Positions 33,551 through 40,357 of a DNA stretch of 64,000 nucleotides are shown here, piece by piece. The notes beneath the pieces were generated by a model. The model was not told where the DNA came from and did no database searches. It saw only the letters and a program-made list of their open reading frames with translations. The position numbers were made by a program, and so were the translations under genes. Each line of letters begins with the position of its first letter. Position 1 is the first letter of the stretch. Source of the stretch: Pseudomonadota bacterium (GTDB taxonomy: Bacteria; Pseudomonadota; Alphaproteobacteria; UBA828); assembly GCA_027624955.1 (NCBI GenBank), contig JAQBTG010000002.1, positions 24,694-88,693 of the forward strand, given 5' to 3'.

Positions 33551-34303
33551 TCAGCCGACCTTGCACATCATGCCGCCATCGATCGGCAGCACATGGCCGG
33601 TAATGTAACTGGCGCGATCGGAGCATAGCCAGACCACGGCCTCGGCCACTTCGTTTGCTTCGCCGACGCGGCCCATCGGCACGCCGAGCGCGGCTTTGTC
33701 GACATCGCCGCTCCAATCGCGCAGCATCATCGGCGTGCGGATCGGCCCCGGCGCGATGGCGTTGACGCGGATGTTCTTTTTCGCGAGTTCGAGCGCGGCG
33801 GTTTTTGTCAGGCCAGAAATGGCGTGCTTGGCCGCGATATAGGTCGAGCGCTCGGGGCCGGCATTCAGGCCCCAGACCGACGTGGCATTGACGATTGAAC
33901 CGCCGCCGCCGGCGATCATTGCTGGGATCTCATGCTTCATGCAGGCGAGGATGCTGAACAAATTGACGTCATAGGCGGCTTTCACCTCCGCCAAATCGAC
34001 GTCCTGAACGGGGCAGGCCGGGCTTTCGATGCCGGCATTGTTATAGGCGATGTCGAGGCGGCCATATTCATCGAGCGCACGCGCCACCATGCGCGCGATC
34101 GCGGCCTCATCAATCACATCGACCGTCTCAAAAACCGCGCGTCCGCCCAATTCGTGGATTTCCGCCACCATCGGATCGCCCTCCGAAGGCTCTCTGCCGG
34201 TGACCACCACCGCTGCGCCTTCGCGCGCCATGGCAAACGCCGCAGCCCGGCCGAGCCCTGCGGTGGCGCCCGTCACCACGCCAACTTTTCCCTGCAACAT
34301 CAT
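33551..34303 (-). CDS. SDR family oxidoreductase, paralogous to the 5369-6118 product. The start is probably at the MMLQGK Met; the track ORF extends to 34339.
   Basis: It has VVTGATAGLGRA, NNAG, and YIAAKH. The C-terminal 100 aa are near-colinear with the 5369 protein (VNAIAPGPI.TP..LR.W......A..VPM.R.G...EVA.AVVWL.SD..S.ITGH.LPIDGGM). Confidence 0.85.
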   Translation of the reverse strand: MMLQGKVGVVTGATAGLGRAAAFAMAREGAAVVVTGREPSEGDPMVAEIHELGGRAVFETVDVIDEAAIARMVARALDEYGRLDIAYNNAGIESPACPVQDVDLAEVKAAYDVNLFSILACMKHEIPAMIAGGGGSIVNATSVWGLNAGPERSTYIAAKHAISGLTKTAALELAKKNIRVNAIAPGPIRTPMMLRDWSGDVDKAALGVPMGRVGEANEVAEAVVWLCSDRASYITGHVLPIDGGMMCKVG

Positions 34304-34496
34304 ATCTTGCTTACCCTCTACCCGGTTGATGGCGCGCATCGAGCAGGCGCCGCCGACGATGATGCGAAATCATTTCGGTTATATCAATGACCTGGCGCTG
34401 GCTGGTTGCGGCGGTAGATAGCGCTGCCAACGGCTGGGCGGTGCGCTTTGCCGCCCAGCCGTTGGCATACTTGGGTTTAGAGGTTCAAGCCCGGTG

Positions 34497-35381
34497 CTAG
34501 CTCACATTGTCGCCGCGGCGGAAGGCTCGGATCACGTTGTCGCGCAGCACATGGCGAGCCATGTCTTCACCGAGCCGCTCGGCTAATTTCGCCTCGAAAT
34601 AGCGGTGCACATAGGTGTTGTCGCGGTCGTACTGCCACACCGGCGGATTGACATAAACCGAGGCATCGGCCGAGACGATCACCTGGTCGGGATGGCCCTT
34701 GGTGATGTTCTCGATGCGCTCGAGCATTGAGGCATCGTCGGTCGGGCCGTTGAAAAACGGGTCGGTGTCGGCGCTGATCGCATCGAACTGCACGGTTGCG
34801 CCGCGACCGACCATCTTGAGATGGTCTTCATTGCTCGACGGCTGCGAATGGCCCCACACAAATCGATCCAGTTTGAAGCCCTCCGCTTCCAACGACGCGA
34901 CAACTTCGTTGGCCACATTCGCATGCGGGCAATGCATCGAAATGGTGCAGCCGGTTTTCTTCGCCGCTATGGCAGCGGCCCGATGAAATGGAACCTCGGT
35001 TTCGACGACGGCATCCGAGGACACCGAGATCTTGATAAATCCGGCGCGAATATTGGTGCCGTCAATTCCCATCGTCAGCTCGCGCATGAAGTGCTCGGCG
35101 AGACGCGGGACCGAGAGATCAGCCATCGCCGGCGGCACCAGGCTTTTGTAGATGCCGGTCGGACAGACAATATTCATCCCGGTTTGGCGCGACACATGGC
35201 GCAGCAACAGGACGTTGCGCCCGACACCGAGGTTGGTCCACTCAATCATCAAATTGACGCCCTGGCCGCGCAGTTCCATGGCGCTGGTGACGCTGGCGCC
35301 GAGCGCTGCCGACCAATTAACGTCCATATATTCGGCAGCGTTTGGCCCGTGAAAATCGACGAACAGATGTTCATGCGCCAT
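34497..35381 (-). CDS. Phosphotriesterase-like (PTE/PLL, amidohydrolase superfamily) protein body, beginning MAHEHL... with the metal-ligand residues intact.
   Basis: It has HEHL (first two His ligands), IRAGFIKIS (the carboxylated Lys), and the remaining ligands in MHCPH, WGHSQ and VSADAS, by recalled alignment to Brevundimonas OPH. The upstream in-frame codons are separated from the start by a single TAG. Confidence 0.75.
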   Translation of the reverse strand: MAHEHLFVDFHGPNAAEYMDVNWSAALGASVTSAMELRGQGVNLMIEWTNLGVGRNVLLLRHVSRQTGMNIVCPTGIYKSLVPPAMADLSVPRLAEHFMRELTMGIDGTNIRAGFIKISVSSDAVVETEVPFHRAAAIAAKKTGCTISMHCPHANVANEVVASLEAEGFKLDRFVWGHSQPSSNEDHLKMVGRGATVQFDAISADTDPFFNGPTDDASMLERIENITKGHPDQVIVSADASVYVNPPVWQYDRDNTYVHRYFEAKLAERLGEDMARHVLRDNVIRAFRRGDNVS

Positions 35382-35387
35382 GGCTTT

Positions 35388-35567
35388 CTAGATGTCTGCG
35401 GCGCTGACCGGCCCGGTAACGGTCTGTAGGACGGCGTTCTCGATTGTGTCCGCCAACGCGAATTTCGAACTGCCGAGAGTTGTCAGGGCCATCGCGCCGA
35501 GCGCCGCGCCCGAGCCCAGTAGAAACGATCGCCGGCTTGCTAGGATATCCAGAGGATTGTTTGACAT
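35388..35567 (-). other. 5' ORF encoding a twin-arginine (Tat) signal peptide plus the first PTE-homologous residues. It is in frame with the PTE body but ends at a TAG (35388-35390).
   Basis: MSNNPLDILASRRSFLLGSGAALGAMALTTLGSSKFALA contains the SRRxFL Tat motif. A GGGAG RBS precedes the ATG at 35567. ...LQTVTGPVSAADI* aligns to the OPH region TVRGPITISEAGF. Confidence 0.65.
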
Positions 35568-35718
35568 GATTGCTCCCGTAGTTGATTTTGTGAACCACTT
35601 GTGATCCAATGGAAAATTGATCTAATAATGGTACACTAATGGATCCAATGATCAAGGTGCAACTTGGCGTCCTAGAGCGCGCGGCGGAATCGATCAAGCG
35701 TGCGACAAGGCGCGCGAT

Positions 35719-36405
35719 ATGAACAAGCGCGAGCGATCACACGAGCTGTCCGGCGCGGTTCGTGCCTCGATAACCGATCGCATCGCATCGGGTGAATTGG
35801 CGCCGGGCGACCGGGTGCCGACGGAGCGCGCGCTCTCGGAAAAATATGAGATTGCCAGGAATACCGTGCGCACGGTGTTGCGCCAGCTTGAGCGCGACGG
35901 GCTGATCGTGCGCCATGTCGGCAGCGGTACGTTTGTTGCCGATAGGGAAGGCCAGGTGCGGTTGACGCCGGCCACGGGCATTGGTGACGCGTCGCCGTCC
36001 GATATCATGGAGGTTCGCTTGCTCGTCGAGCCGGGCATGGGCGAGCTTGCTGTCTTGCGCGCTACTCAATCGGATCTCGACACCCTACAAAAATGCCTGG
36101 AGCGCGGAGAGGCGGCGCGTTCGTGGCGTGAATTCGAGCGCTGGGACGCTGAATTTCATGAGGCATTGGCGCTGACGACGAAAAACCGCGCGGTGATCGA
36201 TATTCTAAGTTCGATCAACCGGCTTCGATCCCTTTCGGCGTGGGGAGAGTTGAAGAAGAAGAGCCTCACTCCGGCGCGCCGGACAATTTACGAACGCCAG
36301 CACCGCGCGATTTTGACGGCGCTCTCCAAACGAGATTCTGCCGGTGCGCAGAAGACCATTCGCCAGCATCTGCTGTCCGTTCGACATAATCTCATCGGAT
36401 ATTAA
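35719..36405 (+). CDS. GntR-family transcriptional regulator (FadR/FCD subfamily).
   Basis: An N-terminal winged-HTH (LPTERALSEKYEIARNTVRTVLRQLERDGLI) is followed by a C-terminal FCD-like helical domain. It is divergent from the PTE-like gene. Confidence 0.85.
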   Translation: MNKRERSHELSGAVRASITDRIASGELAPGDRVPTERALSEKYEIARNTVRTVLRQLERDGLIVRHVGSGTFVADREGQVRLTPATGIGDASPSDIMEVRLLVEPGMGELAVLRATQSDLDTLQKCLERGEAARSWREFERWDAEFHEALALTTKNRAVIDILSSINRLRSLSAWGELKKKSLTPARRTIYERQHRAILTALSKRDSAGAQKTIRQHLLSVRHNLIGY

Positions 36406-39595: not shown

Positions 39596-40357
39596 GTGAA
39601 GATGCATATTCTCTCCGGCGGCCGCCTCAGGATGCAGAAGCTCGTCTATTTGCCTGGCTCGGCGCCCGAGGAAATGATCGAGCTGCCGGTTTCCTGTTTC
39701 CTGTTCATTCACCCACACGGCAATGTGCTGTTCGATACCGGCTGTCACCCGGAAATAGCCGTCAACCCGGAGGAGCGTTGGGGGCCGATGGCGCGCTTTG
39801 TAATTCCGGCGATGTCGGCTGATGACAACATCATCAGCCAGCTCGCGCGGGTGAATCTGGCGCCCGACGATATCGATATCGTGGTGAATTCGCATTTGCA
39901 CTGCGACCATTGCGGCTGCAACGAGTTTTTCTCCAAGGCGACGATCTACTTACACCGCGATGAGCTAGCCTGTGCGCGCGATCCGGCGAGCGAGGGCCAA
40001 GGCTATTTCCAGGCCGAATGGGACCACCCGATGCCGATGATCGAATTCGACGGTGAAGTGGATATCTTCGATGATGGGCGCTTGGTATTGCTGCCGCTGC
40101 CTGGCCATTCGCCGGGGATGACCGGCCTGCTCGCCGCGCTGCCAAAGAGCGGCGCGCATCTGCTGGCTTCGGACGCGGTCGCGGTGCGCGAGAATTTACA
40201 GCCGGAAAACATGCCGCAAAATACCTGGAACCGCGACGTGCAAACTAAATCCATCGCCGAGATCACCCGCATCGAGAAATCGGGGGCGCAGGTTCTGTGC
40301 GGCCATGACTTGGCGGAGTGGTCGACCTTCAAGCAGGCGGAGGAAAGTTACGCCTAA
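39596..40357 (+). CDS. Metallo-beta-lactamase-fold N-acyl homoserine lactonase-like hydrolase.
   Basis: A 253-aa ORF. HLHCDHCG matches the AiiA-type HxHxDH zinc motif, with a downstream His in LPGHSPGM. Confidence 0.65.
   Translation: MKMHILSGGRLRMQKLVYLPGSAPEEMIELPVSCFLFIHPHGNVLFDTGCHPEIAVNPEERWGPMARFVIPAMSADDNIISQLARVNLAPDDIDIVVNSHLHCDHCGCNEFFSKATIYLHRDELACARDPASEGQGYFQAEWDHPMPMIEFDGEVDIFDDGRLVLLPLPGHSPGMTGLLAALPKSGAHLLASDAVAVRENLQPENMPQNTWNRDVQTKSIAEITRIEKSGAQVLCGHDLAEWSTFKQAEESYA

What the first reader, a model, noticed from the sequence alone, without database searches (positions are those of the whole stretch)
34497..35609. Tat-secreted phosphotriesterase-like enzyme interrupted by a single in-frame amber codon
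A 5' ORF encodes a textbook twin-arginine signal (SRRSFLLGSGAALGAMALT) and the first PTE-homologous residues (..TVTGPVSAADI). It is followed in the same frame by TAG (35388-35390), two codons (K, A), and then an ATG that opens a 294-aa PTE-like body in which all metal-binding residues (HEH, carboxylated Lys, His, His, Asp) are intact.

By recalled alignment to Brevundimonas OPH, the TAG replaces a conserved Gly. The catalytic domain shows no other damage. The options are therefore:
- a very recent nonsense mutation, i.e. an incipient pseudogene;
- a sequencing error;
- a functional arrangement in which re-initiation at the internal ATG yields a cytoplasmic enzyme lacking its export signal.

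There are no pyl genes nearby to suggest pyrrolysine read-through.
Basis: seen in the sequence. Interest (0 to 1): 0.6.

Follow-up and report, generated by a model that had tools for sequence, protein, structure and literature searches.

The report
Recently broken secreted hydrolase gene
A gene for an exported metal-dependent hydrolase of the phosphotriesterase family carries a real, population-wide premature stop codon just after its export signal, and is most likely an ordinary gene caught at the first step of being lost.

Summary
On the minus strand, a 356-codon PTE-family gene (35567-34497) is interrupted only by TAG at 35390-35388 (codon 60). An in-frame ATG follows 6 nt later and opens a 294-aa ORF.

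It is not a sequencing error. Six other assemblies, 99.8-100% identical but with different SNP haplotypes, carry the same TAG.

Full-length 356-aa orthologues have Glu at this position (GAA or GAG; Gln or Lys in some).

On the window's own branch the gene shows 28 synonymous and 5 conservative non-synonymous changes (omega about 0.06), so the nonsense mutation is very recent.

The sister lineage has inactivated the same gene independently: a +1 frameshift before the catalytic Asp, with further lesions in some alleles. Intact alleles persist there, so the gene is dispensable in this clade.

The internal ATG has no Shine-Dalgarno sequence. A product starting there would lack the Tat signal, a conserved N-terminal beta-hairpin and part of barrel strand 1. 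TAG is an ordinary stop codon here, and no tRNA or pyl genes are nearby.

Verdict: an incipient pseudogene. Residual expression by reinitiation or read-through is possible, but nothing supports it as a selected arrangement. Low interest.

The parts
34497..35567 (-). Whole interrupted PTE-family gene: 356 codon positions plus the terminal TAG. It is collinear, without gaps, with full-length 356-aa orthologues.
   Evidence: 93% nt identity to the intact L003 and L016 genes over all 1071 nt, with no indels.
35391..35567 (-). 5' fragment, codons 1-59. It holds the Tat signal peptide, a predicted AxA cleavage site (A37-L38-A39, cleavage before D40) and the first 20 residues of the mature protein, including the conserved beta-hairpin (L47, V50, G52).
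   Evidence: Gene callers list it as a separate 59-aa ORF.
35469..35537 (-). Twin-arginine signal match, residues 11-33 (SRRSFLLGSGAALGAMALTTLGS). The RR pair is at 35534-35529.
   Evidence: TIGR01409 scores 16.8 bits against a cut-off of 16.7. Pfam TAT_signal scores 18.6 against 22.7, which is below its cut-off. R12 and R13 are conserved in orthologues.
35388..35390 (-). In-frame amber codon TAG at codon 60. Intact relatives have GAA or GAG (Glu), or CAG (Gln).
   Evidence: The TAG is present in the window and in L005-L009 and L017.
34497..35381 (-). 3' fragment: a 294-aa ORF from M63 to S356 holding all six metal ligands. Ligand positions are H65 35375-35373, H67 35369-35367, K179 35033-35031, H212 34934-34932, H240 34850-34848 and D301 34667-34665. 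It ends with an ordinary TAG stop.
   Evidence: NCBI annotates it as a hypothetical protein, MDA1354848.1.
35573..35577 (-). Shine-Dalgarno GGGAG, 5 nt upstream of the native ATG. The internal ATG at 35381 has nothing comparable.
   Evidence: Duplex energy with the anti-SD is -6.6 kcal/mol for the native ATG and -0.1 kcal/mol for the internal ATG.
35568..35718 (.). Divergent intergenic region between the PTE gene and the GntR gene. It has conserved non-coding blocks, presumably promoter and operator, that are still intact.
   Evidence: Alignment with L016, L003, L013 and L010. A promoter-like site lies at 35594-35566 on the minus strand.
35719..36405 (+). Divergently transcribed GntR/FCD-family regulator. 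It is paired with the PTE gene in all relatives down to 78% nt identity.
33551..34339 (-). Downstream short-chain dehydrogenase, annotated glucose 1-dehydrogenase. It is conserved next to the PTE gene in the close relatives L003, L013 and L018, and a promoter-like site lies upstream of it.
34426..34466 (.). Perfect inverted repeat (16-nt arms, 9-nt loop) between the PTE stop and the SDR gene. It may be a terminator, but there is no T-run after it.

Best explanation
This is a genuine, very recent nonsense mutation, most simply GAG (Glu60) to TAG. It lies in a gene for a Tat-exported binuclear-metal hydrolase of the phosphotriesterase (PTE) family. The mutation has spread through a near-clonal natural population of an uncultured proteobacterium.

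Translation from the native start stops after 59 residues. The only product made in quantity is therefore a signal peptide carrying 20 mature residues, and the exported enzyme is lost.

The gene is an incipient pseudogene. It looks undamaged because too little time has passed for further lesions to accumulate.

Shown here:
- the stop codon is real and shared across assemblies;
- orthologues are full-length, with a sense codon at this position;
- purifying selection acted over almost all of the lineage's history;
- the same gene is being destroyed independently in the sister lineage.

Inferred:
- the enzyme's function is lost;
- any 294-aa protein from reinitiation, or full-length protein from UAG read-through, is a minor by-product and not selected for.
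For: (1) The TAG is real. The window plus six other assemblies (L005 NCBI MAG, L006, L007, L017 ENA, L008, L009 Logan) carry TAG at codon 60. They differ from the window at 19 variable sites over 16.9 kb, in different combinations.

(2) No window-type allele with a sense codon exists among the 14 members of the 90% cluster.

(3) More than 30 orthologues are full-length (355-381 aa), with a Tat signal and Glu, Gln or Lys at position 60.

(4) Changes specific to the window's branch are 28 synonymous and 5 non-synonymous, all conservative. That gives omega of about 0.06. At most about 9% of the branch can have been neutral.

(5) Within the carriers the gene has only two singleton SNPs. One of them is A91P, at a site that is at least 90% conserved.

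(6) The sister lineage carries a +1 T frameshift before the catalytic Asp in at least 6 contigs from ENA and JGI. Some alleles add a -1 deletion, loss of the start codon and extra non-conservative substitutions. Intact alleles of that lineage coexist.

(7) TAG is an ordinary stop codon here. It ends 7 of the 19 called genes nearby, counting both halves of this gene. The window has no tRNA. No pyl-type Pfam families occur within 8 kb on either side.

(8) The internal ATG has no SD: -0.1 kcal/mol against -6.6 for the native start. There is no RNA structure around the stop (z=+0.7).
Against: The 3' ORF shows no second lesion, and all six metal ligands and the regulatory region are intact. An ATG lies only 6 nt after the stop. 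Ribosomes that terminate at an internal stop can reinitiate at a nearby Met codon (PMC6728339), so some signal-less protein may be made. UAG read-through gives low-level full-length protein from Salmonella pseudogenes (PMC9122581), and position 60 tolerates Gln and Lys in orthologues. Because the carriers are near-clonal, the data cannot separate 'neutral since the mutation' from 'still selected'.
Confidence: 0.78

Rival explanations
1. Relocalisation by reinitiation. Ribosomes terminating at the TAG restart at the ATG 6 nt downstream and make a signal-less 294-aa cytoplasmic enzyme. That enzyme is useful, and the arrangement is kept by selection.
For: The stop-to-start spacing is only 6 nt. 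Reinitiation at internal Met codons after an artificial stop is documented (PMC6728339). The catalytic residues and the rest of the ORF are intact. The allele is fixed in all seven sampled genotypes.
Against: The ATG is ancestral, being Met in most orthologues, so it was not created for this purpose.

There is no SD (-0.1 kcal/mol, weaker than about 85% of 20-mers in the gene). Removing the SD cut reinitiation substantially in 4 of 5 E. coli gene pairs.

The product would lack the beta-hairpin 46-55 and 2 of the 5 residues of barrel strand 1 in the AF2 model of the 96%-identical orthologue. That stretch contains invariant V50 and G52 and near-invariant L47 and T49.

The arrangement is confined to one near-clonal lineage, and the sister lineage simply destroys the gene.
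Confidence: 0.1
2. Leaky hypomorph. Low-level read-through of the UAG by near-cognate tRNAs still delivers a little full-length Tat-exported enzyme, and that reduced dose is what the cell now uses.
For: UAG was the main stop codon read through in Salmonella pseudogenes, giving low protein levels (PMC9122581). Orthologues accept Gln or Lys at position 60, so read-through products would probably be functional.
Against: There is no read-through-promoting structure. The base after the stop is A, whereas C was the most frequent neighbour in that study. No suppressor tRNA is seen in the window. There is no evidence of selection for the state, and the sister lineage shows the gene is dispensable.
Confidence: 0.06
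3. Sequencing or assembly error: the true sequence has a sense codon.
For: The source is a metagenome-assembled genome, and some carrier contigs have only 5-7x coverage according to their contig names.
Against: The same TAG is present in seven assemblies from NCBI, ENA and Logan that differ from one another at other sites. A substitution is also not the typical homopolymer-type error.
Confidence: 0.02
4. Programmed recoding of UAG, either pyrrolysine or a reassigned or suppressed amber codon.
For: The interrupting codon is UAG, the codon used for pyrrolysine.
Against: TAG terminates 5 other called genes within 17 kb, and it terminates this gene itself at the position where all orthologues end. 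The window has no tRNA. No pyl-like families are found within 8 kb on either side. Orthologues have ordinary Glu, Gln or Lys codons at this position.
Confidence: 0.02

Closest known systems
PTE-like lactonases (Deinococcus radiodurans Dr0930, Geobacillus kaustophilus GKL/GkaP)
   Same: Same Pfam family (PF02126) and the same (beta/alpha)8 barrel. Foldseek TM is 0.72-0.76 normalised to the query and about 0.8 to the target, at 25-28% identity, for the model of the 96%-identical intact orthologue. Sequence E-values are about 1e-26 to 1e-28. The ligand set is the same: HxH, Lys, His, His, Asp.
   Different: Those enzymes are cytoplasmic and lack a Tat signal. They have Gly where this subfamily has Glu60. 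Identity is only about 25-28%, and the substrate of the present subfamily is unknown.
Organophosphate hydrolase / parathion hydrolase (OPH, PTE) of Brevundimonas diminuta and Agrobacterium
   Same: Same PTE family and fold (1psc). From my own knowledge, not re-checked here: native OPH also carries an N-terminal twin-arginine signal and is Tat-targeted (Gorla et al. 2009, J Bacteriol).
   Different: The NCBIfam OPH equivalog scores 81.5 bits against a cut-off of 500, so this is not an OPH orthologue. Identity is about 22-24%.
E. coli phosphotriesterase homology protein (PHP/YhfV, 1bf6)
   Same: It is the best sequence match among solved structures (E=1.5e-28).
   Different: The PRK09875 equivalog scores 118 bits against a cut-off of 486. 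PHP has Glu in place of the bridging Lys (alignment), no signal peptide and no N-terminal hairpin.
Bacterial pseudogenes with in-frame UAG ('pseudo-pseudogenes', Salmonella; PMC9122581)
   Same: A single in-frame UAG in an otherwise intact gene, with possible low-level read-through.
   Different: No expression data exist here. The organism is an uncultured aquatic proteobacterium, not a host-restricted pathogen.
Translational coupling by termination-reinitiation (PMC6728339)
   Same: A stop codon closely followed (6 nt) by an in-frame ATG on the same mRNA.
   Different: Natural coupled pairs are conserved and usually have an SD inside the upstream gene. Here there is no SD, no conservation beyond one clone-like lineage, and the 'downstream gene' is the truncated remainder of a single ancestral gene.

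Membership tests
Phosphotriesterase family (Pfam PF02126, amidohydrolase superfamily) | Significant match to the family profile above the curated cut-off | tested here: met
   138.6 bits against a cut-off of 22.4, E=3.8e-40. The match covers residues 54-307 and spans the stop.
Phosphotriesterase family (Pfam PF02126, amidohydrolase superfamily) | Binuclear-metal ligand set: HxH, bridging Lys (carboxylated) or Glu, His, His, Asp | tested here: met
   H65, H67, K179, H212, H240 and D301 are present in the window and invariant in 47 orthologues. In the alignment to E. coli PHP, the HEH motif, the bridging Lys (opposite PHP's Glu) and the next two His columns line up; that alignment ends before D301. 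Carboxylation of the Lys cannot be tested here.
Phosphotriesterase family (Pfam PF02126, amidohydrolase superfamily) | (beta/alpha)8 barrel fold like solved PTE and PLL structures | tested here: met
   The AF2 model of the 96%-identical intact orthologue P0001 has pLDDT 88.7. Foldseek against the PDB gives E of about 3e-23 and TM up to 0.76/0.83 to PTE, GkaP and Dr0930. The window's own broken product was not modelled.
Phosphotriesterase family (Pfam PF02126, amidohydrolase superfamily) | Hydrolase activity (lactone, ester or phosphotriester) | not testable with these tools
   Needs an enzyme assay.
OPH equivalog (NF041153) and PHP equivalog (NF007373) | Score at or above NCBIfam's equivalog cut-off | tested here: not met
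   81.5 against 500 for OPH, and 118.1 against 486 for PHP. It is a separate, uncharacterised subfamily.
Tat (twin-arginine) exported proteins | N-terminal S/T-R-R-x-F-L-type motif followed by a hydrophobic stretch and an AxA cleavage site | tested here: met
   The sequence reads S11-R-R-S-F-L-L, then a hydrophobic stretch, then A37-L-A39 before D40. TIGR01409 scores 16.8 bits against a cut-off of 16.7, which is marginal. Pfam TAT_signal scores 18.6 against 22.7, which is below its cut-off. The RR pair is at least 90% conserved in orthologues.
Tat (twin-arginine) exported proteins | Actual Tat-dependent export | not testable with these tools
   Needs an experiment. In the window allele the signal is in any case uncoupled from the enzyme by the stop.
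Pseudogene (recent, unitary) | Disruption relative to intact orthologues, reproducible in independent data | tested here: met
   TAG against GAA, GAG or CAG in intact relatives. Seven assemblies with different haplotypes carry it.
Pseudogene (recent, unitary) | Relaxed selection after the disruption | tested here: inconclusive
   Only two singleton SNPs occur in the gene among carriers: one synonymous, and one A91P at a conserved site. Omega of about 0.06 on the branch shows only that the lesion is recent.
Pseudogene (recent, unitary) | Gene dispensable in the clade, shown by independent losses | tested here: met
   The sister lineage shows the +1 frameshift, plus a -1 deletion, start-codon loss or 5' replacement in some alleles, and coexists with intact alleles.
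Programmed termination-reinitiation pair | Short stop-start distance | tested here: met
   6 nt separate the TAG from the ATG.
Programmed termination-reinitiation pair | SD or other restart signal, and conservation of the two-ORF arrangement across diverged relatives | tested here: not met
   SD energy is -0.1 kcal/mol. The arrangement occurs only in genotypes at least 99.8% identical, and all more distant relatives have one ORF.
Pyrrolysine or amber recoding | pylT/pylS or a tRNA-CUA present, and TAG rarely used as a true stop | tested here: not met
   The 64-kb window has no tRNA. No pyl families occur in the annotated 17 kb. TAG ends 7 of 19 called genes. The rest of the genome could not be examined.

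The most novel reading that the evidence does not exclude
A single G-to-T change has turned a Tat-exported periplasmic hydrolase into a two-cistron unit. Termination at the amber codon is followed by SD-independent reinitiation 6 nt downstream, giving a signal-less cytoplasmic enzyme. This one-step relocalisation would be the reason the allele swept through the population.
Probability: 0.08. Interest if true: 0.55.

Novelty: new member of a known kind. Interest (0 to 1): 0.2.

Why it matters
It matters mainly for annotation. NCBI lists the 294-aa remnant as an ordinary hypothetical protein, and gene callers add a separate 59-aa ORF. Together they are one broken gene and should be flagged as a pseudogene.

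As biology, it is a clean small example of gene loss caught in progress in wild, uncultured bacteria. One lineage is at the first lesion, and its sister lineage shows a graded series of later lesions in the same gene. This suggests that the exported PTE-family enzyme, whose substrate is unknown, has become dispensable in this clade.

It would be of wider interest only if the truncated cytoplasmic product proved functional.

Tried and rejected
- Sequencing error: rejected, because seven assemblies with distinct haplotypes carry the TAG.
- Code reassignment or pyrrolysine: rejected. TAG is a common true stop, the window has no tRNA, and there are no pyl families nearby.
- Read-through or restart RNA element: folding 35330-35450 gave no structure beyond shuffles (z=+0.7).
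- Dedicated RBS for the internal ATG: none.
- Second PTE copy in the window: none (tblastn).
- Sense-codon alleles of the window's own lineage: none in the 90% protein cluster. One metagenome pattern scan returned only three sister-lineage contigs.
- The GTDB genome scan returned only a Sneathiella MAG (82% aa identity) and a Thermoleophilia MAG (48%), so no close isolate genome was available.
- Sample provenance: a paper search for the run, sample and assembly accessions found nothing.
- 'TAG replaces a conserved Gly': true only against distant solved PLLs, not within the orthologous group.
- A truncated natural homologue, P0110, which starts at the equivalent Met, turned out to be another disrupted gene. 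Its signal and mature parts are in different frames, so it gives no precedent for a functional short form.

Full report
**What is there**

On the minus strand an ATG at 35567 is preceded by GGGAG. It opens 59 sense codons (MSNNPL...GPVSAADI), followed by TAG at 35390-35388, then AAA GCC, then an ATG at 35381. That ATG opens a 294-aa ORF ending at TAG 34499-34497.

Translated through the stop, the 356 positions match Pfam PTE (PF02126) at 138.6 bits, from residue 54 to 307. Homology therefore runs across the stop. NCBIfam equivalogs for E. coli PHP and for OPH are hit far below their cut-offs (118 against 486; 81.5 against 500). This is a PTE-family member of an uncharacterised subfamily.

The 59-aa N-terminal piece passes TIGR01409 TAT_signal_seq by 0.1 bit (16.8 against 16.7). 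It is below Pfam's TAT_signal cut-off.

**Orthologues**

A search of 5.8 billion proteins gave many full-length relatives of 355-381 aa at 53-96% identity. In the alignments the twin arginines, the six metal ligands (H65, H67, K179, H212, H240, D301) and the stretch L47-T49-V50-G52 upstream of the stop are invariant or nearly so.

The residue at the stop position is Glu in most, and Gln or Lys in some. It is Gly only in distant solved relatives such as Dr0930.

The codons in the nearest intact genes are:
- GAA in L016, L003 and L010;
- GAG in L018, L013 and L015;
- CAG in Sneathiella L001.

A single G-to-T change from GAG is the simplest path to TAG.

**Is the TAG real?**

The exact 294-aa product, with the 59-aa ORF directly upstream, is encoded on contigs from another NCBI MAG, three ENA assemblies and two Logan assemblies. 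All carry TAG.

These contigs are 99.8-100% identical to the window. They differ from it at 19 sites over 16.9 kb, in different combinations, so they are distinct genotypes and not copies of one assembly. None of the 14 members of the 90% protein cluster is a window-type allele with a sense codon.

A sequencing error is effectively excluded. The allele is fixed in the sampled near-clonal population. NCBI labels the source 'Proteobacteria bacterium' and calls the 294-aa ORF a hypothetical protein.

**How old is it?**

I used the three closest intact genes (92-94% nt identity) to assign changes to the window's own branch. This gives 28 synonymous and 5 non-synonymous changes, all conservative and at variable sites. 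That corresponds to omega of about 0.06. It is no different from the other branches (Fisher p=0.74). At most roughly 9% of the branch can have evolved neutrally.

Within the carriers the gene has two singleton SNPs. One is synonymous. The other is A91P, at a site at least 90% conserved. The nonsense mutation is therefore very recent, which is enough to explain the undamaged catalytic domain.

**The sister lineage**

Contigs L013, L014 and L015 (ENA, JGI) and L020-L022 (JGI) belong to the closest sister lineage. All have an extra T in a T5 run about 90 nt upstream of the catalytic Asp codon, which shifts the frame.
- L013, L014 and L022 add a -1 deletion 111 nt later.
- L013 has lost the canonical ATG.
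- L022 has its 5' end replaced.
- L013, L014, L020 and L022 also carry non-conservative substitutions (E to G, V to D).

Intact alleles of the same lineage also exist (P0130/L018, P0127, P0123). The same gene is therefore being inactivated independently and progressively next door, which argues that it is dispensable in this clade. The window's allele is the earliest stage of the same process.

**Could the arrangement be functional?**

The ATG 6 nt after the stop is ancestral, being Met in most orthologues. It has no Shine-Dalgarno sequence: -0.1 kcal/mol against -6.6 for the native start, and weaker than about 85% of 20-mers in the gene. The surrounding RNA has no structure beyond shuffled controls.

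Reinitiation at a nearby internal Met after an artificial stop is documented. However, removing the SD lowered reinitiation substantially in 4 of 5 E. coli pairs (PMC6728339).

I modelled the 96%-identical intact orthologue with AF2 (pLDDT 88.7). It matches solved PTE and PLL barrels.
- Residues 1-37 are disordered, as expected for the signal.
- Residues 46-55 form a confident beta-hairpin.
- Barrel strand 1 is residues 61-65.

A protein starting at M63 would lose the hairpin, with its invariant V50 and G52, and two of the five residues of strand 1. This suggests a destabilised product but does not prove it.

Low-level UAG read-through is known from Salmonella pseudogenes (PMC9122581) and would give a tolerated residue here. 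Nothing indicates that it is selected.

**Recoding**

TAG ends 7 of the 19 genes called in the surrounding 17 kb, including this gene at the position where all orthologues end. The window has no tRNA gene. No pyl-type family is annotated within 8 kb on either side. The rest of the genome could not be checked.

**Context**

A GntR/FCD regulator (35719-36405, plus strand) is divergently paired with the PTE gene in every relative down to 78% nt identity. It is not paired in the Sneathiella locus L001 or the Thermoleophilia locus L002. The intergenic region keeps conserved blocks.

A short-chain dehydrogenase follows on the same strand (33551-34339). It lies behind a perfect 16-nt-arm hairpin and a promoter-like site. 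It is therefore probably not silenced by polarity, though that is an inference.

The substrate of the enzyme is unknown. A lactonase or esterase role is the usual expectation for non-OPH members of this family. That is general knowledge of the family, not something tested here.

**Verdict**

This is a real amber mutation that has just turned a Tat-exported PTE-family hydrolase gene into an incipient pseudogene in a wild, near-clonal population.
- Its 'recent nonsense mutation' option is supported.
- Its 'sequencing error' option is refuted.
- Its 'functional reinitiation' option remains a low-probability possibility.

The finding is ordinary in kind. Its value is in annotation and as a tidy example of parallel gene decay.

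Noticed in passing
L013, L014, L015, L020, L021, L022 (equivalent to window ~34760 and ~34650): The sister lineage shows a graded decay series of the same PTE gene. All six contigs have a +1 T in a T5 run. L013, L014 and L022 add a -1 deletion 111 nt later. L013 has lost its ATG and L022 has its 5' end replaced. L013, L014, L020 and L022 carry extra E-to-G and V-to-D changes. Intact alleles (L018/P0130, P0127, P0123) coexist.
   Followed up: yes
L013 3747-6116 and 10126-11748; L014 likewise: In the sister lineage, two neighbouring genes are also split relative to relatives. The SAM/guanylate-cyclase/AAA_16 gene is 772 aa in L003 but 427+353 here. The SulP transporter is 540 aa in the window but 469+63 here. 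The same splits appear in two independent samples, which suggests broader gene decay in that lineage.
   Followed up: no
L017 3025-3786 (window ~39596-40357) and window 35297: One TAG-carrying genotype (L017) has the neighbouring Lactamase_B gene split (253 aa to 108+138). It also carries A91P in the PTE remnant, at a conserved site. I could not tell whether these are real mutations or assembly errors.
   Followed up: partly
L019 2823-3891: A distant homologue (P0110, 57% identity) has its Tat signal (TRRQAL) and its mature domain in different reading frames. It is flanked by transposase and recombinase genes. This is either another disrupted copy or a long-read homopolymer error. It is seen in a single assembly.
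   Followed up: partly
window 34426-34466: A perfect inverted repeat (GCCAACGGCTGGGCGG, 9-nt loop) lies right after the PTE stop, with no T-run. It occurs once in the window. The sequence downstream of the stop differs in L003 and L013.
   Followed up: partly
window 35568-35718: Conserved non-coding blocks (CTTGATCATT, TTTGTGTACCATTATT, ATTGGATCACAATTGGTTCA) lie between the divergent GntR and PTE genes. They are kept down to relatives with 78% gene identity and are likely the operator and promoter. The window lineage has one change in the last block (AAGTGG for AATTGG). A polymorphic site, 35588, lies just downstream of that block.
   Followed up: partly
window 33551-34339: The SDR gene is called as 262 aa here but 250 aa in most relatives. 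A better SD (GAGGG) precedes the Met pair 12 codons downstream, so the annotated start is probably too far upstream.
   Followed up: no
L006/L007 vs L010/L011 (samples ERZ24794640, ERZ24794639): The same two metagenomes contain both the TAG allele (contigs named cov ~5-7) and an intact 90%-identical orthologue in a different gene neighbourhood (contig named cov ~30 in one sample, ~4 in the other). A related organism in the same community therefore keeps the enzyme.
   Followed up: partly
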